A DNA stretch of 36,430 bases. Origin: Nemertoderma westbladi (taxonomy: Eukaryota; Animalia; Xenacoelomorpha). Shown here piece after piece: positions 1-27,370 of this stretch. The first letter of the stretch is position 1. Each line of letters opens with the position of its first letter. The translations under genes were made by a program, and so were the position numbers. The notes beneath the pieces were generated by a model that saw only the letters and a list, made by a program, of their open reading frames with translations, ran no database searches and was not told the origin of the DNA. The DNA is taken from positions 1-36,430 of the forward strand of contig JAUCBJ010009119.1 in assembly GCA_032718475.1 (NCBI GenBank), in the 5' to 3' direction.

Positions 1-3000
1 CTTAAACATTACACGACTACTTAAACATTATACGACTACTTAAACATTATACGACTACTTAAACATTATACGACTACTTAAACATTATACGACTACTTAA
101 ACATTATACGACTACTTAAACATTATACGACTACTTAAACATTATACGACTACTTAAACATTATACGACTACTTAAACATTATACGACTACTTAAACATT
201 ATACGACTACTTAAACATTATACGACTACTTAAACATTATACGACTACTTAAACATTATACGACTATACTTAAACATTATACGACTACTTAAACATTATA
301 CGACTACTTAAACATTATACGACTATACTTAAACATTATACGACTACTTAAACATTATACGACTACTTAAACATTACACGACTACTTAAACATTATACGA
401 CTACTTAAACATTATACGACTACTTAAACATTTATACGACTACTTAAACATTATACGACTACTTAAACATTATACGACTACTTAAACATTACACGACTAC
501 TTAAACATTATACGACTATACTTAAACATTTATACGACTACTTAAACATTATACGACTACTTAAACATTATACGACTACTTAAACATTATACGACTACTT
601 AAACATTATACGACTACTTAAACATTATACGACTACTTAAACATTATACGACTACTTAAACATTATACGACTACTTAAACATTATACGACTACTTAAACA
701 TTATACGACTACTTAAACATTATACGACTACTTAAACATTATACGACTACTTAAACATTATACGACTACTTAAACATTATACGACTACTTAAACATTATA
801 CGACTACTTAAACATTATACGACTACTTAAACATTATACGACTACTTAAACATTATACGACTACTTAAACATTATACGACTACTTAAACATTATACGACT
901 ACTTAAACATTATACGACTACTTAAACATTATACGACTACTTAAACATTATACGACTACTTAAACATTATACGACTACTTAAACATTATACGACTACTTA
1001 AACATTATACGACTACTTAAACATTATACGACTACTTAAACATTATACGACTACTTAAACATTATACGACTACTTAAACATTATACGACTACTTAAACAT
1101 TATACGACTACTTAAACATTATACGACTACTTAAACATTATACGACTACTTAAACATTATACGACTACTTAAACATTATACGACTACTTAAACATTACAC
1201 GACTACTTAAACATTATACGACTACTTAAACATTATACGACTACTTAAACATTATACGACTACTTAAACATTATACGACTACTTAAACATTATACGACTA
1301 CTTAAACATTATACGACTACTTAAACATTATACGACTACTTAAACATTATACGACTACTTAAACATTATACGACTACTTAAACATTATACGACTACTTAA
1401 ACATTATACGACTACTTAAACATTATACGACTACTTAAACATTATACGACTACTTAAACATTATACGACTACTTAAACATTATACGACTACTTAAACATT
1501 ATACGACTACTTAAACATTATACGACTACTTAAACATTATACGACTACTTAAACATTACACGACTACTTAAACATTACACGACTACTTAAACATTATACG
1601 ACTACTTAAACATTATACGACTACTTAAACATTATACGACTACTTAAACATTTATACGACTACTTAAACATTATACGACTACTTAAACATTATACGACTA
1701 CTTAAACATTATACGACTACTTAAACATTATACGACTACTTAAACATTATACGACTACTTAAACATTATACGACTACTTAAACATTATACGACTACTTAA
1801 ACATTATACGACTACTTAAACATTTACACGACTACTTAAACATTACACGACTACTTAAACATTATACGACTACTTAAACATTATACGACTATACTTAAAC
1901 ATTTATACGACTACTTAAACATTATACGACTACTTAAACATTACACGACTACTTAAACATTATACGACTACTTAAACATTTATACGACTACTTAAACATT
2001 ATACGACTACTTAAACATTATACGACTACTTAAACATTACACGACTACTTAAACATTATACGACTACTTAAACATTATACGACTACTTAAACATTATACG
2101 ACTACTTAAACATTATACGACTACTTAAACATTATACGACTACTTAAACATTATACGACTACTTAAACATTATACGACTACTTAAACATTATACGACTAC
2201 TTAAACATTATACGACTACTTAAACATTATACGACTACTTAAACATTATACGACTACTTAAACATTATACGACTACTTAAACATTATACGACTACTTAAA
2301 CATTATACGACTACTTAAACATTATACGACTACTTAAACATTATACGACTACTTAAACATTATACGACTACTTAAACATTATACGACTACTTAAACATTA
2401 TACGACTACTTAAACATTATACGACTACTTAAACATTATACGACTACTTAAACATTATACGACTACTTAAACATTATACGACTACTTAAACATTATACGA
2501 CTACTTAAACATTATACGACTACTTAAACATTATACGACTACTTAAACATTATACGACTACTTAAACATTATACGACTACTTAAACATTATACGACTACT
2601 TAAACATTATACGACTACTTAAACATTATACGACTACTTAAACATTATACGACTACTTAAACATTATACGACTACTTAAACATTATACGACTACTTAAAC
2701 ATTATACGACTACTTAAACATTATACGACTACTTAAACATTATACGACTATACTTAAACATTATACGACTACTTAAACATTATACGACTACTTAAACATT
2801 ATACGACTATACTTAAACATTTATACGACTACTTAAACATTACACGACTTACTTAAACATTACACGACTACTTAAACATTATACGACTACTTAAACATTA
2901 TACGACTACTTAAACATTATACGACTATACTTAAACATTATACGACTACTTAAACATTATACGACTACTTAAACATTATACGACTTACTTAAACATTATA

Positions 3001-6000
3001 CGACTACTTAAACATTATACGACTATACTTAAACATTATACGACTACTTAAACATTATACGACTACTTAAACATTACACGACTACTTAAACATTATACGA
3101 CTACTTAAACATTATACGACTACTTAAACATTATACGACTACTTAAACATTATACGACTACTTAAACATTTATACGACTACTTAAACATTACACGACTAC
3201 TTAAACATTATACGACTACTTAAACATTATACGACTACTTAAACATTATACGACTACTTAAACATTATACGACTACTTAAACATTATACGACTACTTAAA
3301 CATTATACGACTACTTAAACATTATACGACTATACTTAAACATTTATACGACTACTTAAACATTATACGACTACTTAAACATTACACGACTACTTAAACA
3401 TTATACGACTACTTAAACATTACACGACTACTTAAACATTATACGACTACTTAAACATTTATACGACTACTTAAACATTATACGACTACTTAAACATTAT
3501 ACGACTACTTAAACATTATACGACTACTTAAACATTATACGACTATACTTAAACATTATACGACTACTTAAACATTATACGACTACTTAAACATTACACG
3601 ACTACTTAAACATTATACGACTACTTAAACATTATACGACTACTTAAACATTATACGACTACTTAAACATTATACGACTACTTAAACATTACACGACTAC
3701 TTAAACATTACACGACTACTTAAACATTATACGACTACTTAAACATTATACGACTACTTAAACATTATACGACTACTTAAACATTATACGACTACTTAAA
3801 CATTATACGACTACTTAAACATTATACGACTACTTAAACATTATACGACTACTTAAACATTATACGACTACTTAAACATTATACGACTACTTAAACATTA
3901 TACGACTACTTAAACATTATACGACTACTTAAACATTATACGACTACTTAAACATTATACGACTACTTAAACATTATACGACTACTTAAACATTATACGA
4001 CTACTTAAACATTATACGACTACTTAAACATTATACGACTACTTAAACATTATACGACTACTTAAACATTATACGACTACTTAAACATTATACGACTACT
4101 TAAACATTATACGACTACTTAAACATTATACGACTACTTAAACATTATACGACTACTTAAACATTATACGACTACTTAAACATTATACGACTACTTAAAC
4201 ATTATACGACTACTTAAACATTATACGACTACTTAAACATTATACGACTACTTAAACATTATACGACTACTTAAACATTATACGACTACTTAAACATTAT
4301 ACGACTACTTAAACATTATACGACTACTTAAACATTATACGACTACTTAAACATTATACGACTATACTTAAACATTTATACGACTACTTAAACATTATAC
4401 GACTACTTAAACATTATACGACTACTTAAACATTATACGACTACTTAAACATTATACGACTACTTAAACATTATACGACTACTTAAACATTATACGACTA
4501 CTTAAACATTATACGACTACTTAAACATTATACGACTACTTAAACATTATACGACTACTTAAACATTATACGACTACTTAAACATTATACGACTACTTAA
4601 ACATTATACGACTACTTAAACATTATACGACTACTTAAACATTATACGACTATACTTAAACATTTATACGACTACTTAAACATTATACGACTACTTAAAC
4701 ATTATACGACTACTTAAACATTATACGACTACTTAAACATTATACGACTACTTAAACATTATACGACTACTTAAACATTATACGACTACTTAAACATTAT
4801 ACGACTACTTAAACATTATACGACTACTTAAACATTATACGACTACTTAAACATTATACGACTACTTAAACATTATACGACTACTTAAACATTATACGAC
4901 TACTTAAACATTATACGACTACTTAAACATTATACGACTACTTAAACATTATACGACTACTTAAACATTATACGACTACTTAAACATTATACGACTACTT
5001 AAACATTATACGACTACTTAAACATTATACGACTACTTAAACATTATACGACTACTTAAACATTATACGACTATACTTAAACATTATACGACTACTTAAA
5101 CATTATACGACTACTTAAACATTATACGACTACTTAAACATTATACGACTACTTAAACATTATACGACTACTTAAACATTATACGACTACTTAAACATTT
5201 ATACGACTACTTAAACATTATACGACTACTTAAACATTATACGACTACTTAAACATTATACGACTATACTTAAACATTATACGACTACTTAAACATTATA
5301 CGACTACTTAAACATTATACGACTACTTAAACATTATACGACTACTTAAACATTATACGACTACTTAAACATTATACGACTACTTAAACATTATACGACT
5401 ACTTAAACATTATACGACTACTTAAACATTATACGACTACTTAAACATTATACGACTACTTAAACATTATACGACTACTTAAACATTATACGACTACTTA
5501 AACATTATACGACTACTTAAACATTATACGACTACTTAAACATTATACGACTACTTAAACATTATACGACTACTTAAACATTATACGACTACTTAAACAT
5601 TATACGACTACTTAAACATTATACGACTACTTAAACATTATACGACTACTTAAACATTATACGACTACTTAAACATTATACGACTACTTAAACATTATAC
5701 GACTACTTAAACATTATACGACTACTTAAACATTATACGACTACTTAAACATTACACGACTACTTAAACATTATACGACTACTTAAACATTTATACGACT
5801 ACTTAAACATTATACGACTACTTAAACATTATACGACTACTTAAACATTTATACGACTACTTAAACATTATACGACTACTTAAACATTATACGACTACTT
5901 AAACATTATACGACTACTTAAACATTATACGACTACTTAAACATTATACGACTACTTAAACATTATACGACTACTTAAACATTATACGACTACTTAAACA

Positions 6001-9000
6001 TTATACGACTACTTAAACATTATACGACTACTTAAACATTATACGACTACTTAAACATTTATACGACTACTTAAACATTATACGACTACTTAAACATTTA
6101 TACGACTACTTAAACATTATACGACTACTTAAACATTATACGACTACTTAAACATTATACGACTACTTAAACATTATACGACTACTTAAACATTATACGA
6201 CTACTTAAACATTATACGACTACTTAAACATTATACGACTACTTAAACATTATACGACTACTTAAACATTATACGACTACTTAAACATTATACGACTACT
6301 TAAACATTATACGACTACTTAAACATTATACGACTACTTAAACATTATACGACTACTTAAACATTATACGACTACTTAAACATTATACGACTACTTAAAC
6401 ATTATACGACTACTTAAACATTATACGACTACTTAAACATTTATACGACTACTTAAACATTATACGACTACTTAAACATTATACGACTACTTAAACATTA
6501 TACGACTACTTAAACATTATACGACTACTTAAACATTATACGACTACTTAAACATTATACGACTACTTAAACATTTATACGACTACTTAAACATTATACG
6601 ACTACTTAAACATTATACGACTACTTAAACATTATACGACTACTTAAACATTATACGACTACTTAAACATTATACGACTACTTAAACATTATACGACTAC
6701 TTAAACATTATACGACTATACTTAAACATTATACGACTACTTAAACATTATACGACTACTTAAACATTATACGACTATACTTAAACATTTATACGACTAC
6801 TTAAACATTATACGACTACTTAAACATTATACGACTATACTTAAACATTTATACGACTACTTAAACATTATACGACTACTTAAACATTATACGACTATAC
6901 TTAAACATTATACGACTACTTAAACATTTATACGACTACTTAAACATTATACGACTACTTAAACATTTATACGACTACTTAAACATTATACGACTACTTA
7001 AACATTATACGACTACTTAAACATTATACGACTACTTAAACATTATACGACTACTTAAACATTATACGACTACTTAAACATTACACGACTACTTAAACAT
7101 TATACGACTATACTTAAACATTATACGACTACTTAAACATTATACGACTACTTAAACATTATACGACTATACTTAAACATTTATACGACTACTTAAACAT
7201 TATACGACTACTTAAACATTTATACGACTACTTAAACATTATACGACTACTTAAACATTATACAACTACTTAAACATTATACGACTACTTAAACATTTAT
7301 ACGACTACTTAAACATTTATACGACTACTTAAACATTATACGACTACTTAAACATTATACGACTACTTAAACATTATACGACTATACTTAAACATTTATA
7401 CGACTACTTAAACATTATACGACTACTTAAACATTTATACGACTACTTAAACATTATACGACTACTTAAACATTATACAACTACTTAAACATTATACGAC
7501 TACTTAAACATTTATACGACTACTTAAACATTTATACGACTACTTAAACATTATACGACTACTTAAACATTATACGACTACTTAAACATTTATACGACTA
7601 CTTAAACATTATACGACTACTTAAACATTATACGACTACTTAAACATTATACGACTACTTAAACATTACACGACTACTTAAACATTATACGACTACTTAA
7701 ACATTTATACGACTACTTAAACATTATACGACTACTTAAACATTATACGACTATACTTAAACATTATACGACTACTTAAACATTATACGACTACTTAAAC
7801 ATTATACGACTATACTTAAACATTTATACGACTACTTAAACATTATACGACTACTTAAACATTTATACGACTACTTAAACATTACACGACTACTTAAACA
7901 TTATACGACTACTTAAACATTATACGACTACTTAAACATTATACGACTATACTTAAACATTTATACGACTACTTAAACATTATACGACTACTTAAACATT
8001 ATACGACTACTTAAACATTATACGACTACTTAAACATTTATACGACTACTTAAACATTATACGACTACTTAAACATTATACGACTACTTAAACATTATAC
8101 GACTACTTAAACATTATACGACTACTTAAACATTTATACGACTACTTAAACATTATACAACTACTTAAACATTATACGACTACTTAAACATTATACGACT
8201 ACTTAAACATTATACGACTACTTAAACATTATACGACTACTTAAACATTATACGACTACTTAAACATTATACGCTACTTAAACATTATACGCTACTTAAA
8301 CATTATACGACTACTTAAACATTATACGACTACTTAAACATTTATACGACTACTTAAACATTATACGCTACTTAAACATTATACGCTACTTAAACATTAT
8401 ACGACTACTTAAACATTATACGACTACTTAAACATTATACGACTACTTAAACATTACACGACTACTTAAACATTATACGACTACTTAAACATTATACGAC
8501 TACTTAAACATTTATACGACTACTTAAACATTATACAACTACTTAAACATTATACGACTACTTAAACATTATACGACTACTTAAACATTACACGACTACT
8601 TAAACATTATACGACTACTTAAACATTTATACGACTATACTTAAACATTATACGACTACTTAAACATTTATACGACTACTTAAACATTATACAACTACTT
8701 AAACATTATACGACTACTTAAACATTATACGACTACTTAAACATTACACGACTACTTAAACATTATACGACTACTTAAACATTATACGACTACTTAAACA
8801 TTTATACGACTATACTTAAACATTATACGACTACTTAAACATTTATACGACTATACTTAAACATTATACGACTACTTAAACATTATACAACTACTTAAAC
8901 ATTACACGACTACTTAAACATTATACGACTACTTAAACATTATACGACTACTTAAACATTTATACGACTATACTTAAACATTATACGACTACTTAAACAT

Positions 9001-10067
9001 TATACGACTACTTAAACATTATACGACTACTTAAACATTATACGACTACTTAAACATTATACGACTACTTAAACATTATACGACTACTTAAACATTATAC
9101 GACTACTTAAACATTTATACGACTATACTTAAACATTATACGACTACTTAAACATTTATACGACTATACTTAAACATTATACGACTACTTAAACATTATA
9201 CGACTACTTAAACATTATACGACTACTTAAACATTATACGACTACTTAAACATTATACGACTACTTAAACATTATACGACTACTTAAACATTATACGACT
9301 ACTTAAACATTTATACGACTACTTAAACATTATACGACTACTTAAACATTTATACGACTATACTTAAACATTATACGACTACTTAAACATTATACGACTA
9401 CTTAAACATTATACGACTACTTAAACATTTATACGACTATACTTAAACATTATACGACTACTTAAACATTTATACGACTACTTAAACATTATACAACTAC
9501 TTAAACATTACACGACTACTTAAACATTATACGACTACTTAAACATTTATACGACTACTTAAACATTATACAACTACTTAAACATTACACGACTACTTAA
9601 ACATTATACGACTACTTAAACATTATACGACTACTTAAACATTTATACGACTATACTTAAACATTATACGACTACTTAAACATTATACGACTACTTAAAC
9701 ATTATACGACTACTTAAACATTATACGACTACTTAAACATTATACGACTACTTAAACATTATACGACTACTTAAACATTATACGACTACTTAAACATTAT
9801 ACGACTACTTAAACATTATACGACTACTTAAACATTATACGACTACTTAAACATTATACGACTACTTAAACATTTATACGACTACTTAAACATTATACGA
9901 CTACTTAAACATTATACGACTACTTAAACATTATACGACTACTTAAACATTATACGACTACTTAAACATTATATGACTACTTAAACATTATACGACTACT
10001 TAAAAACATTTATACGACTACTTAAACATTATACGACTACTTAAACATTTATACGACTACTTAAACA
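1..10067. repeat. 19-bp tandem array (CTTAAACATTATACGACTA)n, roughly 520-530 units; candidate telomeric repeat or minisatellite
   Basis: Head-to-tail units with no spacers from base 1 to ...TTAAACA at 10067. Recurrent variants: TACAC for TATAC, +T (CATTTATA), +TA (GACTATACTT), CAA for CGA, -A (ACGCTA). Confidence refers to the array, not to the telomere interpretation. Confidence 0.98.
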
Positions 10068-10125
10068 ATTAAACTAACTTATTATTTTGAGAGACACGGG
10101 GGGAATGTAACTGGACGGAAATCCC

Positions 10126-10338
10126 ATCTCTGTAAATTAATATTCCGCCTGAATGTTAAATTATCAATTTAGGGCAAGGAGCAGGTTACAGTGACACGTT
10201 ATTCTAACCAAAACAATTAACTAAAGTCAATATATCAGGTTATAGTTTATATTTGGGGGTAATCAGCTGTTATATACACCGAATTTCCCTGAGAGGGATT
10301 AAATTTTATTGCGTCGAACCCCCCCCCCCCCCCCCCCC
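10126..10338 (+). repeat. Dispersed repeat, copy 1 (unclassified, ends in poly-C)
   Basis: Aligns by eye to 14065-14277, e.g. CAATTTAGGG(C/A)AAGGAGCAGGTTACAGTG(A/G)CACGTTATT, CAATATATCAGGTTA, GTAATCAGCTGTTAT, TTATTGCGTC then poly-C. Confidence 0.8.
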
Positions 10339-10395
10339 GGGCGCAATTTCCTAATTACCGGTAATGTAACTTTTTGAAGGCTTTTTCAAGGCTTT

Positions 10396-10535
10396 GCAAA
10401 GTCCGCAATGACGTCCAGGTGGGATCGAACTCTTCGGGTTGGCTGACCCGACCCTCTAACCATTCAGCTTGCGGCTCAGCTAAAAGATAGACCTGGAAAT
10501 TCTATCTGATACCTTGTATGCAATTTACCTCCTCA
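10396..10535 (-). mobile_element. tRNA-derived SINE-like repeat, degenerate copy
   Basis: Shares GACGTCCAGGTGGGATCGAACT, CTCTAACCATTCAGCT, GCGGCTCAG and CTGATACCTTGTATG with 19416-19564; B box GTTCGATCC on the - strand. Confidence 0.65.
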
Positions 10536-10648
10536 CGGCATCCCTTCTGTTAATCAAGGACAGGATACGATACGATACGATACGAAAACGGATTTTCGTA
10601 TTTCGTATCGCAGTATTTATTAGTACCGGTATCGAATTTCGTATCGTA

Positions 10649-11663
10649 TAGAGTTGAAACAGAGACCTGTATTTCTTAATCCCGGTAAACCAGAGACCTA
10701 CCCGGATAATTATTTAGAAAAATACCGGAGACCAGAGCCAGAGATCAGAGACTTTGCTTATTTTTCTACTTACAATTTGATTACTCCCCTATAGCACAAA
10801 CAGGTACATACGGCCTTAGAACTATTTTTCTATGGTTCAATTAGAGTAAAGTAAATCCAACCCATTTCAACCCTTATATACCCATTGTAAGAAAATAAGC
10901 GCACGTACAGTTTGGGGGGCTTAATTAATATTAATTAATATTATTTTGGTTATTTGTTTATTAATTCGTGCTTATTTTGTTGTTAATAATATGTTACATT
11001 AATTTGTTTTGCGCCATAGGTACCGGTACTTTGTTAATTAAAGGCACTTATTTTACAATTGTTCAAATCATAAACATTTCAATGTACTATAAACTTGGTT
11101 ATTTACGAATACTTAGTGCACAGGTATAGTGCTCTACTCGCCCCATTTACAAGCCTCGTTACGCTCGTTCTCTCCATTTGGTCGTCATATTATCTATCCT
11201 ATAACAAGTTGAATGGAGATCAGCCCTTTCTTTCAATTTTAAACATTGAGTGCTCAAATTAAGCAACCTTATCCTTAAATAAGAACCATCTTTAGGTGCT
11301 AATTTAACTTAAAATTAAACGAAACTTAAATTAATTAATAAGAAGATTATCGGTACATTTATTAGAAATAGAAATAGTGTAAAAGTGAATATATTATAAT
11401 TGTGTTGAAGTGGTGTATGAAAAATAGTTAAAAATTAAAGAATTAATTAATTGTAAAAAATTTGTGAAAAATTATCTTCATTTCACATTTTGTGTTGTAC
11501 AGGATCTATTTTTAAATATCTATTTCTAATTTGTAAAATCACTGATCTCTGGGTAAAATGTCTGTTTTCAATACCCGGGAACCAGAGACCTATCCGGAGA
11601 CCAAAAAATAGCCCGGAGAATCCAGAGAACAGAGATCAGTGACAGGTCTCTGTTACAACTCTA
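10649..11663. mobile_element. Non-autonomous hAT-like DNA transposon (MITE), 1015 bp
   Basis: 22-bp TIRs TAGAGTTG(A/T)AACAGAGACCTGT (10649-10670 and 11642-11663, one mismatch); 8-bp TSD GTATCGTA/TTATCGTA; CCAGAGACC and CCGGAGA subterminal repeats at both ends; no ORF. Confidence 0.85.
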
Positions 11664-12531
11664 TTATCGTATCAAAAAATGGACTTCGTATCGTATAATA
11701 CGAATAAATATTTTTCGTATTTTCGTTTCTAATTATTTTATAAATCATTAATATTTTAAACAGAGATAACCAAAAAGATAAACACAACACAACATTAATA
11801 TTTACAATATTTTCACAAAATTGTTGTATAAATTAGGTTACAGCTTACAATTTTATTATGTCAATATAATTTGTAAGACAGGAGGATCGTTATCGTTAAT
11901 CACATTGTAATTAACTGTAGAATAATTATAAAAATACCACTGAAATATAATCGAATTTAAATAAAGATTTTAGGATAACTAATCGCGCCTACAAGGCATC
12001 TGATGTTGTTATAAAAGCATTTGTGAGAGAATAAGAGAAATTAAACATATAGTTTTATTCTAGTACAGTATTCTATTCGTTTAACTCAGAACTCTGAAGT
12101 TTTTAATGTTATTCTATATCGGTAACATCAAATTCATATATAATTGTATCAATAAATGCAGTACCGGTAGTAAAAGTTTCAGTTTTGGCGCTAAATGCGG
12201 CGCCAACGCCATCGCACATGGCAGTGGCGCCATTATTGATGACGCTGGCAGCGCCATCGAGATTTCTCCGAGATTCGCCATGAATTTTCTCTGATAACAA
12301 TAGTTTTATAGTTATAGTTAGTTCATTTATTGACAGTTAAAACAAAACAAAATTACAAAAAGCAATAAAAGCACCATAAGGACTGTCCATCGTATTGTCG
12401 TACATAAACGACAAAGTAAGGCATTTATTAACGGTAGATATAAATAAGTCTATATGTATATAAGTAACTATGTATTTATGATTGGAAATATAAACTAATG
12501 ATTTCCGCCCCACACAGTAATTCTAATCGAT

Positions 12532-12873
12532 CAGGATTGCCACTATTATAGTTCAGTTTCAATTTTCCCTGACTTTTTGAAAATATTCCCTGACTGCAGG
12601 TACAACAACATTTTTTATAGAATATAGTATACTTGTATTATTGGCAGCTTTATTATATTCCAAACAATGTAACGAGTTAAGCGATTAGAGTGGACCCTGT
12701 CGACCTATATATTTAGTGATGTGAGGAAATTTAATGACGAGCGAAGCGAGCAGAGAATATTTTACACATTTTCGCTTATTTCACATTCCCTGACTTTTCC
12801 CCGATTTGTCCCATTTTTACTAGAATTCCCTGACATTTATAAAATTGACTATTCCAGGTTAGTGGCAACCCTG
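12532..12873. mobile_element. hAT-like MITE, 342 bp
   Basis: TIRs CAGGATTGCCACTA / TAGTGGCAACCCTG (13/14 match); TTCCCTGAC subterminal motif four times; no clear TSD. Confidence 0.7.
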
Positions 12874-13589
12874 TCGAGGATACTTAGGGGGCGTTCATAA
12901 AGTATGTCACGCACAAGGGGGGAGGGGGACTTTTGTGACGGTCACGGCGATGTTCTACGGTATGTTTTAATGTTAGATTGTCTTTGACTAACACATTTGT
13001 AGATGAGTGGGAAACTTTAAGGAAAAAACAATAAACTCAATAACATTGAATTTAATCCCTAACAGTAACAGGGCACCCCTGTCTAGTCTGCCTTGTACAT
13101 GTACAACCTGTACAGTACTGTAGTTTGAAGCTGCTAAAGTATGTATAGGCTTTTAGTAAGAACTACTTCAGTCAAAATGTTTCACTTTCTATTGTGCTTT
13201 CTAACTGTTATTAAATTATTGAAATAAAATATTTAAGGGGGGGGGGGGGGGGTATAATATATATATAAAATAAAACTATAAATAAAACTTTAAATAAAAA
13301 ATAGAGAATAAAAAATATATATAAATAAAAAATAACACCCCGCTTGTTTACTGTTGTTGTATCGGTATTAAAAAATATTTACTTATTTTACGGAATAAAC
13401 GTGATGGGTGGAAATTTTTTGAAAACTTAGGCCTACTTACTTAACATACAGTATAGGCGTACAGGTACAGTAGTACCAACGGCTACCGGTGGTATACTCG
13501 GTACACGGATTGGGTTTTCTTTCAATTTCAACTCTCAATTATTATGGGAACAAACGGTAATTTACTCATAATTAGCAAGTCGTAAAACT

Positions 13590-13874
13590 TGATTACTGTA
13601 AGAATTGTTCGCTGACTGGCTGGCTGACTGATTGACTGACCTACAGCCAAAACTTGATTTTGATGAAATTTTCACAGCATCTAGATACCGCGATTCTAAG
13701 GTCCCTGGTATGATCGGCTACTCCGTCCATAGCCTCTGGGCTCGAAAAATAGAGATAAACAAAAAAACGCCATAGGCGCAATGGTAAAATAACACCAATG
13801 ACAGCTTGTTGATGGAATTTACATTTGATTGATGACTTCCGACTTACTTAACGGCGTCTTGACGCCGTCTCTAG
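13590..13874 (+). mobile_element. Non-autonomous Helitron/Helentron-like element, 3' part (5' boundary uncertain)
   Basis: GC-rich hairpin ACGGCGTC-TT-GACGCCGT (13851-13868) followed by CTAG then T; internal (CTGA/CTGG)n microsatellite near 13612-13640. Confidence 0.55.
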
Positions 13875-14064
13875 TAAAGAATGTACTAAATTTTTAAAAA
13901 AAAATTAATACTCCGGGTGTCTGGAACTGGAATAAGAGAATTTTGGGTGGATTTTATTTCAAAAATTAATAGCCGTGTCGCCGTTTCTATATATCGGACT
14001 CCAGGGTACATAGAGAAAAAAGTATTAAAATAAAAATAGATTCCCCCACAGAAGACTCAATCCA

Positions 14065-14277
14065 ATCTCGGCGATATAATATCCGCCTCACCTCAATGTT
14101 AAATTCTCAATTTAGGGAAAGGAGCAGGTTACAGTGGCACGTTATTTTTACCAAAACAGAAAACTAAACGCAATATATCAGGTTACAGTTTTATTTTTGA
14201 GAGTAATCAGCTGTTATTTGCGTCGAATTTTCCCTGGAGAGGGAGGAGTTGTTATTGCGTCCAGTCCCCCCCCCCCT
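14065..14277 (+). repeat. Dispersed repeat, copy 2
   Basis: Diverged direct copy of 10126-10338. Confidence 0.8.
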
Positions 14278-15003
14278 CATCTGGAAAAGTGATATACTTA
14301 GTAAATAAAGTGACCATTTTGGTGCAAAAGTGATATTTTTTGGTGTAACGAGTAAATCGTAGCCAAAAAATACGGTAGTTTATTTTCAAATATTTATTTT
14401 AATTAAAATTACACGAATTGAATTTAAAAAAATATTTAAGGGCAGATATTTAAAATAAAACGACTAACATTATTATAATTAAAACCATTGTAACTCAAAT
14501 TTAGACCATTAAACGTGATAATGAATGCAAATGACTAAAATTATTCGTTAGGTTTTGAATTCTCACATATTTTAGGTCCGGTATACCGGAAGGTCACCAT
14601 GATGTTGAGAAATTCTAGTCCTTTTCATTCATTTTCATTATATTAATTAATATGTTATAATAATAATTTTAATTAATACCGGGTACCGGTATGTTTGTTA
14701 GTTGTTTAATTTTAGTTTTGCTGAGCAAATAAACTACGTCGTAAGCCGACTGGCACTACTGGACGACTGGTTAACCAGTAGGTAGTAGTACGGTGGTACT
14801 ATAGTGGTAGTATTTTCCGTGGCGCCTGTCGTCATAGGAAATTTGGTTGATGGCGCCGACAGCGACATCAGGCCATTAGCAAATTTTCAAAAAAGGATCA
14901 GATGGAATTATATTTACCAGATGTTTATTTTTCTTCATTTAGGAAAATAAAGTGTTACTTTTCAGCCCTGTGCTGTACGTATATAATATAGTTAACTACT
15001 AAC

Positions 15004-15142
15004 GGCTGGGTTTTATTGAAGGTGGAATTCCCTTGGGGTACGTTTCTGGTGCGGGGGCCAGGGGGGGTGCGTTGCGTTGTTGCTAGAGGGCGACGGGTCG
15101 GCTGGGAGGCGGTTTTATCGCCACTGCCGGCGACCGGCTGGC
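15004..15142 (-). CDS. MAPRE1: EB1/MAPRE coding exon 2 (Pro/Thr/Arg-rich linker)
   Basis: Polypyrimidine tract and acceptor (ctttatgtcccttcttccttctccgtAG) immediately before 15142; continues exon 1 in phase 1 as GQPVAGSGDKTASQPTRRPLATTQRTPPGPRTRNVPQGNSTFNKTQP; ends at a GTTAGT donor identical to that of exon 1; GC-rich island in AT-rich intron. Confidence 0.75.
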
Positions 15143-15610: not shown

Positions 15611-16004
15611 CAGAGCGGGCGGCTGCAGGCTCGTAGGCGTTGCCTTGGTAATTTGCGTCGAAAAATTTCTTAAACCATTGCACAAACTCAAAGTTATCCT
15701 GAAATCTTCCCTTAATTAATTTCTCTACCGGAGCGACTTTATCCACTTTTAGTTTCTTGAAACTTTCCTGGAGTAACTTAAAATTGTATATATATTCGTG
15801 TTCTAATTTGGCGCTAAATTTAACTTTCTTTAGGGAGACTGAACCCGGGAATAACATGTCCATAAACTGGCAGTATGCCGCGCCAGAACACATGTTCTCG
15901 ATTTTCTGGTAGTTTAGCGCTAACGAGTTGTTCACCCAGGCCAACATTTCGTGACGACTAAGGTTGTCGGCTGTGGTTGTCGCTACCACGTTAATAGCAG
16001 CCAT
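15611..16004 (-). CDS. MAPRE1: EB1/MAPRE-family microtubule plus-end binding protein, coding exon 1 (calponin-homology domain)
   Basis: [12 protein letters not shown]...[16 protein letters not shown]...KKVKF...[13 protein letters not shown]...[22 protein letters not shown] is the EB1 CH domain. The ORF-track stop lies inside a G|GTTAGT splice donor, so the exon ends at 15611 (phase 1). The symbol denotes the family, not orthology to one vertebrate paralogue. Confidence 0.95.
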
Positions 16005-16553
16005 CTTTTCATTAGCCTACCGTTCCAGCGTTCTGCCGTTCGTCAGATCAGTACAGGCAGACAGGACAGGTAGCCCTATTATTGATTATTTCAGTAATTG
16101 TTTGCTGGTTTGGTTTGGTAGGCCTATGGTTTGCCTTCAATGACAATGATATGTAGTTGGATAGGCCGATAGGCCTAGGGCAGTAGGAGTGCCAGTCTGC
16201 CAGTGCAGCAGAGTTGTGGAGTGTGGAAATAGCCTATTGACAAACTGATCGCAAAACCGGTACAATAAACCAGTAAACAAAAGGTGTACTGCAGTCTGGG
16301 CAGCTGGGCCTGGCAGCCTGGGAGTAGCCCTACTGCTACAGTGCTACTACAGTACTACAGTACTAGCTGCTGAGCTGCTAGCTGACTGGTCTACAGGTAT
16401 ATGCCTACCAATTGTCTGCCAGTGCTGCAATGTAGGAAAGTCAACCAGATTAGGTTGACGCCGTCAACCAAATTACGGTACCGGTACGTTGTAAAATTTC
16501 TGTTTCCCCACTGTACCTGTGTACCGTAAGTAAATGCAGTCAAAATAAATGAA

Positions 16554-17699
16554 GGGTAAATCTTTTCGACCTACGCGTAGTTCGCAACATTGGGTCATAT
16601 ATCACCAGTTTCAGAGTTTTAACATTAACTACGCGTAGGTGCTACGCGTAGCTACGCGTAGGTCCTACGCGACCTGCGCGTAGGTGCTACGTATAACTAC
16701 GCGTAGGTGCTACCCATAACTATGCCTATACGTCGTTTATCATTAGTAGGCCTACGTATTCCAAACGGTTCAGTACGTTCAGTACGATAAGACAATAATA
16801 ATAGAGTAAATAAGACAATACGGTACTGTTTGTTCAATAAACAAACCACAACCATCAAATGCTTTCAACAGTACTGCATCCTATACCTGTATACTCTATA
16901 GAGAGGAATACGCTAAGACTACATATTCTTCACTTCATGCGTTGCTGGTGCTAAAATGTGTTTCCGGTAATAATGTTTAGAGTTCAAAAATAGTTTACAA
17001 AGGAAATAGGCCGATGGTTCTTATCGATTCTCAATGCTTTTTATTGCCTTTGTTCACGATAGGGCAAGGATATATTTCATATTTAACATAATATTTAATT
17101 AACCCCTTGAAAAGGGAAGGGGGAGACTAAATTGTCTACCATGATTGGTTGCACTTGTTATTTGACCAAACAATTGAATTATATGCAGTATATATCAGCT
17201 TTCGCTTAACCACTTCACCGGTAGATTGGTAGCTTACTACTGTAGAATATTTAAATAATCCAATGGAAACAAAGATACTTGAATCATGAGACGTGAATTT
17301 TAAGTCTACTTTTTATTCATCCTGTGTTTGTATGTGAAAGAGCCGAATATTATTTATTACCAGTGCAGTATGTAGAGATACTGTATGAGCTTCCGATTCT
17401 GTTATTCCATTTGTCTGATAATCAGATACCTGACATATACCGATACTTGCCTAACAACTCAACCCTACCGGACCTGAAATGAAAAATCATTGTTATCAGG
17501 ACTGCTTCGCGTAGCACCTACGCGTAGCTACGCGTAACACCTACGCGTAGTTTCAAAATACCTACGCGTAGTTCCAAAATAACTACGCGTAGTTTTAAAA
17601 CACCTACGCGTAGTTGTTAAAAAGGCAGTAAGTCTGGCCCTACCGGTAAATGACAGGAATGGAAGTTACAAACTACGCGTAGGTCGAAAAGATTTACCC
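16554..17699. mobile_element. Non-autonomous TIR transposon with 8-bp TSD (Merlin-like or MULE-like), 1146 bp
   Basis: 29-bp perfect TIR GGGTAAATCTTTTCGACCTACGCGTAGTT; perfect TSD TAAATGAA (16546-16553, 17700-17707); clusters of palindromic CTACGCGTAG at both subtermini. Superfamily inferred from GG termini plus 8-bp TSD. Confidence 0.9.
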
Positions 17700-18064
17700 T
17701 AAATGAATTGCTATTGGAAAAAAATGCATAAACACAGAAACATGGTAATAATAATACTACATGTACTACAGACTTAGATTTTATATACTGTCAGACCGTA
17801 GTCGTTCCATGTATATACTGATAGTCGATGTAAGAAATTGAATTTTTGATAAATTGGAAGAGGCGATGATGATGATCTCTAATGGCTAAACGTAATACAG
17901 CGGAGGATCTTGTTTACTTTAGCAGTTGACTATGGTTGATGGATCCGATAACGCTGTAGGCTTAATTGAGTGTAGAGTTGATATGTTGAGTAAAGCTACA
18001 GTAAGAGATTGCTTGTTATACTTTTATTTTTTAATTAATTAATAACAAAGTGAAAAAAAGTGAT

Positions 18065-18590: not shown

Positions 18591-19415
18591 GTTTTATTTT
18601 TAATAAGAGAGGTTAATAAATGTGAAATGAGATAAACTCGTCTCCAAAAAAGTTGCAAATTTTCCAAACTGAAAGTTAATATATAATAAACTGAGTGTTG
18701 GCTATAACGATTTAGCTATTTGGGTAAAGCTATCTGTCACGTCTCACTCATGTTTGGTGAACGTGATATACCGTAATTACGTCAGATTCGATTCAATGCA
18801 CTATAAATTATTTGTTCTGCCCTGTTGACTAACTGCAACTGATAAGTATTATCTGAGCGGGTGTATTGGCCGCTATTCGTCTGTCTGTATTGCGTTAATC
18901 TGTATTTTATCTATGATCGGCAGTGTATGGCTGAGCGATGCAGTGCTTAATAATAGTTCCATTATTACTACAGCAGCGCACACCAATAGCAGCTCCCATT
19001 GGCTCAGAGCTCACTCACTCAGATAAACTGTGGCCACCAGATGTCGTAATTTATACAGTAATGTCATGGGGCGATGGCTGTCTAGACAGTTTATTTTTAG
19101 AAGTCGCTTTGAACTGTGTTGGACTCAAATAAATGTTTGGTTCTGGTTGAAATCAACCACTCCTTCCTGGAATCCTTTATAAATAGGCTGTTTATTATGG
19201 ATCGTCTGCATTCACATTAATCTAAATTAGAAATAATTTCTGTTACTCTATTTTTTAGTTTAGATTCTCAAACTGGCAAGTGGGTATTGAACTGCGATTT
19301 TTTTTAACAATAGCTGTCATTAAAAACTATTTTTAGTGTTTTTATAATTTATTATCAGTGTTTTGTGTGAATGAGTGGTTTCTTATTATTATAACGTTTT
19401 GTTGGGCACAGTGTT

Positions 19416-19564
19416 ACATAGTCGGCACTGACGTCCAGGTGGGATCGAACTGGTGACCTCCGGATGGAAGACTGACGCTCTAACCATTCAGCTACCGGTA
19501 GCGGCTCAGGTAAAAGACATGGATATACTACCTGATACCTTGTATGTCCCAATTTACGTCCTCA
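19416..19564 (-). mobile_element. tRNA-derived SINE-like repeat with Pol III A and B boxes
   Basis: A box TAGCTGAATGG (19484-19494) and B box GTTCGATCC (19442-19450) at tRNA spacing; stems do not pair well; second copy at 10396-10535. Confidence 0.7.
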
Positions 19565-22032: not shown

Positions 22033-23454
22033 TCATGAAGGACATTTATTAAGAACGTTACGTTTCCTTTTCTTGCTATAATTTGTATAAGCTGATTCTG
22101 ACTCAAATTCAAATTCAGTTACTTGAAAATACATCCATATCATCTTTACCAGAAACATTTCCCGAATCAGTATCAGAATTGCATAGATTGTTTTTATCTT
22201 CTTGAGAATCACCACAGACCATGTCACAGTTACTCAATGCCGGATTGCTGACATGTTGCTCACTGATGCAATCTGCAAGTTCAGCATAGTTGCTGCACCA
22301 TGTAAACTCCTTAACAATATCAAGAACATTGGTGGTAGTTAAATCTGATGTATCAAATAAGTCATGCCATGAACGCATGGTTTGCATAACAACAACAGAC
22401 GCAGTTAACCTTGCCCCCAAACCCTATCCTCCTCCAACGACCCTGCCCCATCCACTCCTTCAACCCCCAACGACCTCGTCCCACCCACTCCTTCAACCTC
22501 GGACAACCCTGCCCCAACCACTCCTTCAACATGCGACAACCCTGCCCCACTCACACCTTTAAACTCAGACGACCCTGCCCCACTCACTACTTAAAACTCC
22601 GACAACCCTGCCCCACCCACTCCTTCAACCCCCAACGACCTCGTCCCACCCACTCCTTCAACCTCGGACAACCCTGCCCCACCCACTCCTTCAACATCCG
22701 ACAACCCTGCCCCACTCACACCTTTAAACTCAGACGACCCTGATCCACTCACTCCTTCAACCTCCGACAACCCTGCCCCACCCACTCATTCGACCTCCGA
22801 CAACCCTGCCCCACTCACTCCTTTAAACTCAAATGACCCTGCCCCACCCACTCATTCAACCTCCGACAACCCTGCCTCACTCACTCCTTTAAACTCAGAC
22901 GACCCTGCCCCACTCACTCCTTCAACCTCGGACAACCCTGCCCCACTCACTCCTTTAAACTCAAATGACCCTGCCCCACCCACTCCTTCAACCTCGGACA
23001 ACCCTGCCCCACTCACTCCTTTAAACTCCGACAACCCTGCCCCAGCCACTCCTTTAAACTCAAATGACCCTGCCCCACCCACTCCTTCAACCTCCGACAA
23101 CCCTGCCCCATTCACTCCTTTAAAATCAGACAACCCTGCCCCACCCACTCCTTTAAATTCCAACGACCCAGCCCCACCCACTTCTTTAAACTCCAACGAC
23201 CCTGCCCCACCCACTCCTTTAAACTCCATCGACACAGCCCCACCCACTTCTTTATACTCCAACGACCCTGCCCCACCCACTCCTTTAAACTCCATCGACA
23301 CAGCCCCACTCACTCCTTTAAACTCCGACAACTTAGGCACTTCAATATCTCTCTGTATCTCTTCTTTATTGTCCAATCTTCTAGTTGCTCTGCTTCTTTT
23401 TGGGTAAGATTTGATAACTTCCGTGTTATTCCACCTTCTTCTTCTTGTATTCAA
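22033..23454 (-). pseudogene. Possible disrupted ORF containing 11-aa repeats (S-E-F/V-K/E-G-V-G/S-G-A-G-L/S)
   Basis: ORFs 22852-23454, 22591-22785 and 22405-22587 share one frame, split by point stops; charged non-repetitive leader and acidic/basic downstream ORFs (22115-22420, 22033-22227) in shifted frames; no family recognised. Confidence 0.3.
22432..23331. repeat. 33-bp C-rich minisatellite, about 27 units
   Basis: Unit approx. AACCTCCGACAACCCTGCCCCACCCACTCCTTC; substitutions but frame retained throughout; a 4-unit (132-bp) block is duplicated in the left part. Confidence 0.92.
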
Positions 23455-23725
23455 TACATTTTCTCCTTCCTTTTCAACCCCATAAACACGTTAACATCCA
23501 TGTATTTAAAATTATTTTATACATTGATTTCATTTACTATTAATACACTTTGTAAAAAGTAGCACTTTTTAGAGGTCGGCCAGAGTGTGTTTATTATCTG
23601 AACGAAGCGATTGTTATAAAATGTCATAACGCTATAAAGTGCTTCTTTCTTATAAGTATGTTTGTAATTTTCTCCAATTATATCAACTTTATACATAGAA
23701 ACTTGTTTGCACTTAACTTGAAATT

Positions 23726-25202
23726 GTGCTCATCTATCCCATCATAGTAGACATGTACCGAACAACAAGAGTCCCACAAGAAATGAAAACAAATAAGTTG
23801 GTGCCAGTTCCCAAGAAGGGCAACCTAACACTCTATGGTTCTTTTCGGGGAATCTCATTGATCTCGATTGCTGCAAAGCTATACAATAGGATTCTATTAA
23901 ATCGCATCAGGGATCCCATTGAGAGACTGCTCCGTGGAAATCAGAATGGGTTCCGTAAAGGTCGTGGGACCGTGGAGCCCATTTTGGCACTTAGAAGGAT
24001 AATTGAAGAGTTATCAAAAAAGAAAGACAGGCATCTGGCTGTTATCTTTGTTGACTTCTTCAAGGCCTTTGATTCAGTCTCTCGCTCACGTATGTTCAGC
24101 ATACTTTCATTATATGGGATTCCTGATGAAATTATTGCAGCAATCAGATCAGTATACGATGGTTCGACAACATTTGTGTCTACTGTTGACGGTGACACAG
24201 ATCCATTTGAAGTGTTATGGGGCGTCCTCCAAGGAGACACACTTGCACCATTCTTGTTCATTATTGTGGTTGACTATGTTCTACGCATGTCCTTAGATCA
24301 TTATAATGATGATGGGGTGATGATAACTCCACCTACTGGCTCCAGAAGTCGAGGAAATCCTGCCAAGTACCTAACTGATCTAGACTTTGCTGATTACTTA
24401 GGAGTACTCTCAGAATCATTAGAGGGAGCCCAACGGCTCCTCAGCTCATTAGAACATGCTGCTTCTAGTGTTGGTCTTTTTATTAACTCCAGAAAGACCA
24501 AAATTCTGACAGTTAACTTTGAAAGTCCTCAGCAAGTCTCTGATCGGATGAGCATAAGCTCAAAGGATGGTATGCTTGAGCATGTGGACGACTTCTGTTA
24601 CCTGGGATCATGGATCCGGAAGTCAGGTGAGGGAGGACCTTCGAATACGTAAGGGAAAGGCATGGGCAGCCTTGAATAGGCTTTCCAGGATTTGGAAGTC
24701 ACCGAGAATTAATCGGAAACTTAAGGTCCGATTATTTAGAGCAGCAGTAGTTCCAGTACTCCTCTACGGGAGTCCATGCTGGGCTCTAACTGCTGAGGAC
24801 ACCAAATCTCTGGATGGCACATTCACAAGAATGCTACGCCGGGTTCATTGTGTCAAGTACAATGCACACATCCCCAACCAGACACTATATAACATTGGAG
24901 GTGTCTCATTGGTTCCCCCAAGCTTGACACTAGAACAAAATCGCCTCCGCTTTGCAGGACATTGCTTTCGCCGTGAGGACCAGCCAGTGCATAATCTTGT
25001 ACTTTGGCAGCCTCATGGAGTGAATAACCATGGTGGACAGCCCATGACTTTCTTGAGACGCATCTTAAAGGACACTGGCCTTAAAGATGCGGATGATCTA
25101 GCAAATGTCATGGGTGATAGGGAGTTGTGGCGATGCAATTTTGTTGACAAGCCGGCACAGCATTCTTAAAAATGCAGCTGCAATGCAGCATGCCGATCCT
25201 AG
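23726..25202 (+). mobile_element. 5'-truncated RTE/RTEX-type non-LTR retrotransposon, inactivated RT
   Basis: PKKG...RGISL...QNGFRKGR...FVDFFKAFDSV...GVLQGDTLAPFLF...DLDFADY; catalytic FADD changed to FADY; 4-bp insertion near 24631 shifts the frame into ORF 24567-25169 (VLLYG...LRFAGHCFR); no endonuclease domain. Confidence 0.93.
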
Positions 25203-25302
25203 NNNNNNNNNNNNNNNNNNNNNNNNNNNNNNNNNNNNNNNNNNNNNNNNNNNNNNNNNNNNNNNNNNNNNNNNNNNNNNNNNNNNNNNNNNNNNNNNNN
25301 NN
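25203..25302. other. Assembly gap (100 N)
   Basis: Run of 100 N, a typical unknown-size scaffolding gap. Confidence 0.99.
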
Positions 25303-26014
25303 CTCCCGTAGAGGATTACTGGAACTACTGCTGCTCTAAATAATCGGACCTTAAGTTTCCGATTAATTTTCGGTGACTTCCAAATCCTGGAAAGCCTATT
25401 CAAGGCTGCCCATGCCTTTCCCTTACGTATTCGAAGGTCCTCACCTGACTTCCGGATCCATGATCCCAGGTAACAGAAGTCGTCCACATGCTCAAGTATA
25501 CCATCCTTTGAGCTTATGCTCATCCGATCAGAGACTTGCTGAGGACTTTCAAAGTTAACTGTCAGAATTTTGGTCTTTCTGGAGTTAATAAAAAGACCAA
25601 CACTAGAAGCAGCATGTTCTAATGAGCTGAGGAGCCGTTGGGCTCCCTCTAATGATTCTGATAGTACTCCTAAGTCATCAGCAAAGTCTAGATCAGTTAG
25701 GTACTTGGCAGGATTTCCTCGACTTCTGGAGCCAGTAGGTGGAGTTATCATCACCCCATCATCATTATAATGATCTAAGGACATGCGTAGAACATAGTCA
25801 ACCACAATAATGAACAAGAATGGTGCAAGTGTGTCTCCTTGGAGGACGCCCCATAACACTTCAAATGGTTCTGTGTCACCGTCAACAGTAGACACAAATG
25901 TTGTTGAACCATCGTATACTGATCTGATTGCTGCAATAATTTCATCAGGAATCCCATATAATGAAAGTATGCTGAACATACGTGAGCGAGAGACTGAATC
26001 AAAGGCCTTGAAGA
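25303..26014 (-). mobile_element. Second RTE-type fragment, inverted, near-identical to about 24058-24773
   Basis: Same RT sequence with intact FADD and no frameshift; about 8 differences seen over about 710 bp; 3' part lost in the gap. Confidence 0.93.
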
Positions 26015-26100
26015 TAGGGCTGGCAATCCCGGAGGGTTATTGAAATCCCGGGATCAGAAATGGTCCAATCCCAGGATCCCGGGATTAATCCCGGGATTTA
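26015..26100. mobile_element. hAT-like MITE terminus (other end not found)
   Basis: Begins TAGGGCTGGCAATCCCGG followed by repeated ATCCCGGGAT palindromes; starts exactly where RTE identity stops. Confidence 0.55.
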
Positions 26101-26557
26101 GAATTTCAGGAATAATGTAGGTGAAAAAATACTTGTGTCAATTAATAGCAATTAATTTCCTTTTTTTAATATTAATATTAGGTATCTATTACTGATACAG
26201 TTAAAGTAGTTAACCTATAGTTAACTAATATACAGTAGTTAACCTATAGTTAACTATTATACTGTAGTTAACAAACAGTTAATAAACTGTAGTTAATCGT
26301 TAAAAATTGTTCGGCATTCTTCAGCGAATTTCTTAATATGCGAACTGACTGAATTATGTGAAATTGGCAAGGTGTATCCAGACCTTTGAAAAAGACGACG
26401 TAAATCACACGATGTCTCGAACACAGAAAATGGAAGGCCATCCACTGCTATTAATCTAGCTAGTTGAGTGAAATATTCCTTGGACCCAAAGTAGTTGTCG
26501 ATTGTTAAAGTTTTTTGAATAGGCCTTGCTTTATTAGTAGATTTAGTAGATTAGTGA

Positions 26558-26877
26558 TTATTGATTTACAATTAAAATTGCATTATTATCAATTAATTCA
26601 CACGCAGGCTCTAACCGCCTAATGACAGTCAATACGGAGTAATTCCTTCCCGTGTCTTAGCAACGCTGAGAATGTCCTGGCCTGTTAGAGGCAGACTGCT
26701 GCTGGTTGGGGATGGTAGGATAGCATTAATTCCCTAAACATTCACTCACTCCCCATAGAACTGGCTGACGGGGGTGTGTGTGTGTGTGTTTAGGTATCAG
26801 TTATTCAATGACATTAATATTATTACTAATGAAGGAATAGTGCTCCTTCAATACATCTCAACAGACATCAATTCATT
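26558..26877 (+). repeat. 320-bp direct duplicate of 29926-30245
   Basis: No differences seen by eye, including the (GT)n tract; constant offset 3368. Confidence 0.93.
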
Positions 26878-27370
26878 TTGTCAAATAAATATTCACATTC
26901 TTTAACAAATTAATTTTGTTAATTTTTTAACAAACATTCCTATATGATATGATGATCTTGATGAATATTTCATATTTACCACTTTGACAATCTCTTTAAT
27001 AAGGGGAGTTCAGTAATTGACTAGAAATTTCTAACCCGTCATTTAGGAAACTGGATTTTATCCAAAGTAATTGCTGTTTAGCCTACTTAGATACAATAGG
27101 TGAAAAAAAATATATTTCATATAAATATATTATTAAAAAATAATATAAAAAATTATTTCAATAAAAAATTTGAGGAATTTTAATTCTCTAGTCGACAGAC
27201 AGTCGAGTGTCTGTTTTTTGGATAACCGTTAGACAGACATTGTAGGTTTTTTCTAAATTGTGTAAAATTACATCGGAGATTGTTGGACAGTATATAATGT
27301 TGGGAACAACAATAATAAGAAACACACGACGATTGTCAATAAGTATGGAATATTATAATAAATCGTTTAG
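26875..27370 (+). repeat. 496-bp direct duplicate of 34250-34745
   Basis: No differences seen by eye; constant offset 7375; overlaps the preceding duplicate by ATT. Confidence 0.93.

What the first reader, a model, noticed from the sequence alone, without database searches (positions are those of the whole stretch)
1..10067. Candidate non-canonical 19-bp, G-poor telomere repeat in an animal
Seen: at least 10 kb of one 19-mer running off the window edge; + strand has 4 C and 1 G per unit, so the G-richer strand (TTTAAGTAGTCGTATAATG) runs 5'->3' outward; new variant types appear only near the inner junction; no (TTAGGG)n or (TTAGG)n tract noticed; TE-rich flank with an apparently cut-off gene. 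Established: left chromosome ends carry the C-rich strand on +, proximal telomere repeats are the most degenerate, most animals use short TTAGGG/TTAGG-type units, and long telomerase units are best known from budding yeasts. Inference: this may be a telomere with a long unit lacking any GG, so unable to form G-quadruplexes, implying an unusual telomerase RNA template or recombination-based maintenance. I do not know whether base 1 is a scaffold end.
Basis: partly seen in the sequence, partly recalled or inferred. Interest (0 to 1): 0.82.

Follow-up and report, generated by a model that had tools for sequence, protein, structure and literature searches.

The report
Long 19-base array beside cut gene
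An unnamed animal carries at least 10 kb of a 19-base repeat with no GG in it, directly downstream of two intact exons of a conserved gene (EB1); it is more likely a rare, locus-specific minisatellite inside that gene's intron than the species' telomere, but a very unusual chromosome end is not excluded.

Summary
The array is real: 1-10067, 523 units, 401 of them exact copies of a 19-mer with no GG on either strand. It has two zones. The outer 6.5 kb has 15% variants, nearly all of three types, with no higher-order order. The inner 3.5 kb has 38% variants and block duplications. The edge is sharp. A short-read contig matches it exactly, but with only 19 array bases. EB1 exons 1-2 are intact and point at the array; the EBH-domain exon is absent from the whole window.

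Telomere status could not be tested: no genome is held, it is unknown whether base 1 is a scaffold end, and the junction-polarity test gave nothing. Two points lean against a species-wide telomere. Rough short-read amounts are small (20-41 kb in one sample, about 1-4 kb in another). The second sample's repeat graph is as simple as one 2-3.5 kb array. Library bias could explain both.

Best reading: a locus-specific long minisatellite, likely in EB1 intron 2 (0.5). Rivals: an end-specific, recombination-kept telomere (0.2); a telomerase-made 19-nt telomere (0.2). Long terminal repeats are already known in animals (Meloidogyne hapla 16-mer). I found no GG-free one.

The parts
1..10067 (+). Tandem array of a 19-bp unit (8A 6T 4C 1G on +; no GG on either strand), 523 units plus a partial one; runs off the window's left edge
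1..6500 (+). Outer zone: 340 units, 52 variants, 49 of them of three recurrent types. No significant higher-order periodicity (family-wise p 0.185). Variants are clustered between pure runs of up to 36 units (p 0.001)
6501..10067 (+). Inner zone: 183 units, 70 variants, private types E, F, G, K, L. Lag-11 periodicity (p 0.0055) and an exact 11-unit block duplication at about 7113 and 7328
10049..10181 (+). Array/flank junction at 10067/10068. A 133-base contig of run X3 matches with 0 differences at depth 15.2, but holds only 19 array bases. The flank's first 20-60 bases are no more unit-like than background
10120..10330 (+). Copy of a very high-copy dispersed repeat; a second copy lies at 14059-14276 (81% identical); thousands of contigs per run lie on it
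15004..15142 (-). EB1 (MAPRE) exon 2, the linker: AG acceptor after a pyrimidine tract, GT donor, in frame with exon 1 (exon limits predicted from sequence, no RNA seen)
15611..16004 (-). EB1 exon 1: ATG plus the whole CH domain (PF00307, E 7.6e-14; up to 77% identical to animal EB1 proteins), GT donor
10068..15003 (-). Predicted EB1 intron 2 or cut-off region: 4.9 kb of repeats with no EBH-domain exon

Best explanation
This is a real array of at least 10 kb of a 19-bp AT-rich unit with a sharp edge, and it is likely a locus-specific (one or a few loci) long minisatellite that probably lies inside EB1 intron 2, where the assembled sequence or the window would break. Shown: the array, its two zones, the sharp edge, intact EB1 exons 1-2 pointing at it, no EBH exon in the window, and the same extra-T and extra-TA variants in another sample. 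Inferred: a few old variant units were spread and duplicated in blocks by slippage and gene conversion or unequal exchange. A more recent expansion would give the uniform outer zone. Allele length would differ strongly between individuals. The rest of EB1 would lie beyond the array. No function is implied.
For: (1) EB1 exons 1-2 are in frame with canonical splice sites. The best EBH-profile score in any frame of the window is 5.9 bits, against 22-57 bits for 12-25-residue pieces over the EBH core of four profile members, so that control is optimistic. (2) In run X2 (sample S1) the canonical piece has depth 1243 and the extra-T piece 452, against long contigs at 24-31.5: about 40-52 canonical copies and 1-4 kb in all. 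The window's last 2 kb alone gives 45 canonical and 18 extra-T copies. (3) X2 has 20 contigs on the stretch (8 listed); one copy of the window's inner 2-3.5 kb gives 18-25 layable unitigs in simulation. (4) In run X3 (sample S2) the canonical circle has depth 21809.5 against 15-30 for other contigs: 20-41 kb in all, about two alleles of the window's size. (5) Interspersed variant units, block duplications and large length differences are what minisatellites show (PMC2599865 passages; PMC8327921 passages: human VNTRs up to 14 kb, 61.5% intronic, variation by duplication and deletion). (6) The unit has no GG, unlike the animal motif formula ending in 2-4 G (PMC8977481 passages).
Against: The strand orientation fits a left telomere. 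The outer 6.5 kb has only three recurrent variant types and no detectable block order, which looks like templated synthesis. The extra-TA unit is followed by the extra-T unit 12 times against 2.0 expected (max 8 in 5000 shuffles). The edge is sharp, with no decayed units. The depth figures are rough: the tool warns that depth is no copy number, single-copy depth was guessed from other contigs, and library types are not on record. Points 2 and 3 above are not independent, since strong under-sampling would give both. More than 500 units is above the VNTR copy range in PMC8327921 (up to 300). EB1 intron 1 is only 468 bp, whereas intron 2 would exceed 15 kb. The far side of the array was never seen.
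Confidence: 0.5

Rival explanations
1. The array is a true chromosome end, but specific to one or a few ends and kept by recombination (ALT-like), not telomerase. The EB1 piece would be a truncated subtelomeric duplicate or a broken and capped allele.
For: It reconciles the low total amount with the telomere-like orientation, sharp edge and two zones. Precedents exist. Chromosome-end-specific 52-178 bp repeats occur in telomerase-negative Microstromatales yeasts (PMC13234504 abstract and passages). 105-111-mers cap Strongyloides stercoralis scaffolds (10.1101/2024.10.29.617943 passages). A 16-mer in 1.3-8.9 kb arrays sits at 17 scaffold ends of telomerase-less Meloidogyne hapla (PMC12643312 passages). 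Such repeats need no G-run for templating (inference).
Against: There is no evidence that base 1 is an end, and loss of TERT was not testable. It needs a cut EB1 copy with an undamaged frame. Telomerase loss is reported from few animal groups (PMC12133305 passages).
Confidence: 0.2
2. One reading: the 19-mer is the species' telomere repeat, made by telomerase from a long RNA template. The recurrent extra-T, extra-TA and T>C units would be realignment slips or a second template allele, and the inner zone the older recombined part.
For: The G-richer strand runs outward. 49 of 52 outer variants are of three types with no higher-order order, while the inner zone has block duplications and private types. 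The extra-TA/extra-T pair is coupled and also occurs in sample S1 at depth 120. Long telomerase-made units and two-allele mixtures are known from budding yeasts (PMC7857110 passages).
Against: Arrays of about 10 kb at all ends would give hundreds of kb, against 20-41 kb and 1-4 kb estimated here, so 5- to 100-fold under-sampling is needed. The unit has no GG. EB1 is cut. Animal telomerase RNAs described so far template short repeats (PMC8480181 passages). No template-like copy lies in the 26 kb flank: best 15 of 20 matches; no Rfam hit of note.
Confidence: 0.2
3. The array is real somewhere in the genome, but its join to this flank, or its length, is an assembly product.
For: The scaffold shows assembly-type oddities: a 100-N gap flanked by an inverted 716-bp LINE duplicate (98.5%) and two 100%-identical dispersed blocks of 320 and 496 bp. 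The one junction contig holds only 19 array bases, under the tool's 31-base rule for a bridge.
Against: That contig matches 133 bases across the edge with no difference. The variant units occur in short-read contigs of another sample. Variant density does not rise toward base 1 as read errors would.
Confidence: 0.07

Closest known systems
Hypervariable minisatellites/VNTRs, such as the AT-rich human MSY1 (25 bp, 75% A+T; PMC2599865, abstract and passages) and human expanded VNTRs (PMC8327921, passages)
   Same: Unit size in the 9-100 bp class, AT-rich, a few recurrent variant units, block duplications, apparent length differences between individuals, probable intronic position.
   Different: At least 523 units (MSY1 48-118; up to 300 in the VNTR set). 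It tolerates length-variant units, whereas MSY1 does not. No hairpin is predicted. Both flanks were not seen.
Meloidogyne hapla terminal 16-mer (PMC12643312, abstract and passages)
   Same: An animal, a 16-19 bp unit, arrays of 1-10 kb at scaffold ends, no canonical repeat nearby.
   Different: The M. hapla unit has GG and CCC runs and was shown at 17 scaffold ends and by FISH. Here one array is seen, it has no GG, and an end position is unproven.
Chromosome-end-specific ALT telomeres of Microstromatales yeasts (PMC13234504, abstract and passages) and Strongyloides stercoralis 105-111-mers (10.1101/2024.10.29.617943, passages)
   Same: Would explain a low genome-wide amount together with a terminal position.
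   Different: Their units are far longer (52-178 bp) and in the yeasts GC-richer. Telomerase loss is shown there and untested here.
Long telomerase-templated repeats of budding yeasts (over 20 nt in Candida albicans and Kluyveromyces lactis; PMC7857110, passages) and Allium's 12-mer (PMC12133305, passages)
   Same: Unit length, high uniformity, few recurrent variants.
   Different: Not animals; templates are known there. The Allium unit has a G-run. No template or TERT was found or searchable here.

Membership tests
Telomere repeat (any mechanism) | Array lies at the physical chromosome end | not testable with these tools
   No genome held; only short-read contigs were available.
Telomere repeat (any mechanism) | G-richer strand runs 5'->3' outward | tested here: met
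   4 C and 1 G per unit on + at the left edge; expected half the time by chance.
Telomere repeat (any mechanism) | Junctions to unique DNA on one side of the unit only, at many loci | tested here: inconclusive
   0 of 20 (X2) and 0 of 3 (X3) laid contigs ran on into other unique DNA. Junction contigs hold too little repeat to be laid.
Species-wide telomerase repeat | Amount fits arrays at all ends | tested here: inconclusive
   20-41 kb (X3) and about 1-4 kb (X2). This is low, but library bias and chromosome number are unknown.
Species-wide telomerase repeat | G-run (2-4 G) in the unit, as in described animal motifs | tested here: not met
   No GG in 10067 bases; formula in PMC8977481.
Species-wide telomerase repeat | TERT gene and a template RNA with more than one unit | not testable with these tools
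   No genome; no RNA holder listed; none in the 26 kb flank.
Species-wide telomerase repeat | Variant-rich proximal zone, uniform distal zone | tested here: met
   70 of 183 against 52 of 340 variants; block order only in the inner zone. From my own knowledge, satellite edges and polar minisatellites can also show this.
Minisatellite/VNTR | Tandem unit of 9-100 bp with interspersed variant units and block duplications | tested here: met
Minisatellite/VNTR | Unique DNA on both sides (interstitial) | not testable with these tools
   The window begins inside the array; the missing EB1 exon only hints at it.
Minisatellite/VNTR | Locus-specific and variable in length between individuals | tested here: inconclusive
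   S1 content resembles one 2-3.5 kb array and S2 holds at least 5-fold more; the depth figures are rough.

The most novel reading that the evidence does not exclude
This animal caps chromosomes with a 19-nt repeat that has no GG at all and so cannot form G-quadruplexes. It is made either by a telomerase with a yeast-like long template (the extra-T, extra-TA and T>C units being its slips or a second template) or by recombination at individual ends. This particular end was formed inside a copy of the EB1 gene.
Probability: 0.38. Interest if true: 0.8.

Novelty: new member of a known kind. Interest (0 to 1): 0.4.

Why it matters
If it is a minisatellite, it is an ordinary if large polymorphic array of little general interest. 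If it is a telomere, it would be an animal chromosome end without any G-run. That would make directly testable whether G-runs and G-quadruplexes are needed for end protection. A 19-nt unit would also make the telomerase RNA easy to find by a 20-nt permutation search, as done in Allium (PMC12133305). One look at the full assembly or the long reads settles it.

Tried and rejected
Whole-genome mapping: not possible, no genome held. Exact 29-base pattern scans: 0 matches in metagenome, viral and prokaryote genome contigs; 0 of 80 EB1-related loci hold the unit. Sequencing runs: no RNA holder listed. Junction-polarity test: no contig with array plus other unique DNA was laid, inconclusive. Naming the animal failed. 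EB1 hits top out at 76-77%. The linker exon found nothing. In a 50-row tree of the CH domain (1 chosen row, P0091, skipped) the window's EB1 groups (98/84) only with three unnamed environmental proteins. The Ig-like ORF gave 2 weak hits and only generic atlas clusters. A recalled guess of Xenoturbella did not fit its 43% GC and short introns (PMC11521371 passages). Literature: a search for six 12-15-base rotations of the unit reported 5 papers and listed 3, all unrelated by title and abstract start. Searches for 19-bp or GG-free animal telomeres and for telomeres in little-studied phyla listed none; I saw listings only, apart from the papers cited. Supplements and the TeloBase tables were not read and could hold the motif. 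Earlier findings of the scan: nothing on this genome or this repeat. Folding: no secondary structure for either strand. A decayed extra unit in the flank was considered and rejected (score at background). Read error as the source of the variants was rejected for the extra-T and extra-TA types, which are in short-read contigs; it was not tested unit by unit for the outer zone.
Full report
Observation. Bases 1-10067 are one tandem array of period 19, 523.4 copies, 96% matches. Splitting at the unit start gives 523 units and a partial one; 401 are exactly CTTAAACATTATACGACTA. The unit has 8 A, 6 T, 4 C and 1 G, and neither strand of the whole array has a GG. No canonical telomere motif (0 of 6 tested) and no 11-mer of the unit lie elsewhere in the window. 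Three variants (extra T, extra TA, T>C) occur from the first 450 bases on; only types E, F, G, K and L are confined to positions after 7250.

Internal structure. The outer 6.5 kb has 52 variant units of 340 and the inner 3.5 kb has 70 of 183 (p 1e-8). In the outer zone 49 of 52 variants are of the three common types, there is no significant periodicity (family-wise p 0.185), and variants cluster between pure runs of up to 36 units (p 0.001). The inner zone has lag-11 periodicity (p 0.0055) and an exact 11-unit block duplication. An extra-TA unit is followed by an extra-T unit 12 times against 2.0 expected. The edge at 10067 is sharp: the first 20-60 flank bases are no more unit-like than background. 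This is the layout expected of a telomere with an old proximal and a templated distal part. From my own knowledge, satellite edges and polar minisatellites can show the same gradient.

Surroundings. The organism is an animal that could not be named: its EB1 is at most 77% identical to named proteins and groups only with unnamed environmental sequences. EB1 lies on the minus strand, pointing at the array. Exon 1 (16004-15611) holds the whole CH domain, and a predicted exon 2 (15142-15004) continues in frame with canonical splice sites. A profile of the EBH region, built from the 128 fetched proteins that carry its core motif (duplicates dropped), finds nothing above 5.9 bits in any frame of the window. 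Core pieces of 12-25 residues from four members of that set score 22-57 bits, an optimistic control. So the gene either continues beyond the array, through an intron of more than 15 kb, or is a truncated copy. The 4.9 kb between exon 2 and the array is dispersed repeats.

Short-read evidence. Five public DNA runs from three samples of one coded organism hold part of the flank (shares 0.05-0.54); I laid four of the six listed runs and two. Run X3 has a 133-base contig matching 10049-10181 without a difference at depth 15.2. It holds only 19 array bases, under the tool's 31-base rule for a bridge, so the join is supported but not fully bridged. X3 may be the source sample, which would not be independent support. 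Its canonical-unit circle has depth 21809.5, which against 15-30 for other contigs gives 20-41 kb of array in all. Run X2, another sample, has 20 contigs on the stretch (8 listed): canonical 1243, extra-T 452, and the extra-TA/extra-T pair 120. The variants are therefore real and shared between individuals. Against contigs at 24-31.5 this is about 40-52 canonical copies and 1-4 kb in all, with a variant ratio like the window's inner zone. One copy of the window's last 2 kb gives 45 canonical and 18 extra-T copies and 18 layable unitigs (25 for 3.5 kb). So sample S1 looks as if it holds about one short array. These figures are weak: the tool warns that depth is no copy number, the libraries are not on record, contig simplification drops variants, and strong under-sampling would lower both amount and complexity. 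No contig linking the repeat to other unique DNA was laid, so the polarity test failed to run.

Mechanism. I favour a locus-specific long minisatellite, likely in EB1 intron 2 (0.5). It explains the missing exon, the small genome-wide amount, the difference between samples, the block duplications and the lack of G-runs in one step. Spread of variants by slippage and conversion is inferred from known minisatellites (PMC2599865 and PMC8327921, passages). It explains less well the order-free outer zone, the coupled variants and the sharp edge. An end-specific telomere kept by recombination (0.2) fits both sets of facts but needs telomerase loss and a cut EB1 copy. A species-wide telomerase-made 19-mer (0.2) fits the internal structure best but needs 5- to 100-fold under-sampling. 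An assembly misjoin is unlikely (0.07), though the scaffold has an inverted LINE duplicate around its 100-N gap. These odds are my judgement, not a computation.

Comparison with what is known. Long terminal repeats in animals are not new: a 16-mer in Meloidogyne hapla (PMC12643312, passages), composite G-rich repeats in other Meloidogyne (PMC10844300, abstract), 105-111-mers in Strongyloides (10.1101/2024.10.29.617943, passages), and 8-9-mers in wasps (PMC8977481, passages). End-specific arrays occur in telomerase-negative yeasts (PMC13234504, abstract and passages). Long telomerase-made units occur in budding yeasts (PMC7857110, passages). TeloBase's introduction lists no GG-free animal motif in the passages I saw (PMC10767889); its tables were not read. 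My searches listed no report of this unit or of a GG-free animal telomere.

Verdict. The array is real; telomere identity is unproven and somewhat less likely than not. Interest 0.4. The telomere reading in either form has a probability of about 0.38 and would deserve about 0.8.

Noticed in passing
window 33041-33796 (+): Single-exon ORF of 251 aa with a hydrophobic start and end and a 66-bp internal repeat. No Pfam hit; atlas look-alikes are Ig-like and Thy-1-like clusters at score 0.90; only 2 weak hits among 1.84 billion representatives. Likely a lineage-specific cell-surface protein.
   Followed up: partly
window 23717-26036: LINE reverse-transcriptase pieces (PF00078) on both sides of the 100-N gap at 25203-25302, as an inverted 716-bp duplicate at 98.5%; possibly a scaffolding join.
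   Followed up: partly
window 26558-26877 = 29926-30245 and 26875-27370 = 34250-34745: Two dispersed blocks of 320 and 496 bp are 100% identical within the window: very recent copies or an assembly effect.
   Followed up: no
window 22432-23329: A second minisatellite, 33-bp C-rich unit, 27 copies, with long open frames on both strands.
   Followed up: no
window 16553-16713 and 17511-17700: Inverted, 69%-alike arms made of short palindromic CTACGCGTAG-type repeats enclose about 800 bp; possibly a non-autonomous DNA transposon.
   Followed up: no
window 10394-10535 and 19414-19564: Two 76%-alike copies of a 150-bp element that by recall resembles a tRNA-derived SINE head; ARAGORN found no tRNA.
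   Followed up: no
window 30449-30986 and 27622-28075: 142-bp tandem repeat (3.8 copies) with diverged inverted relatives 2-3 kb upstream.
   Followed up: no
window 26293-26550 (-): 85-aa open frame that by recall resembles a hAT transposase fragment; no Pfam hit.
   Followed up: no
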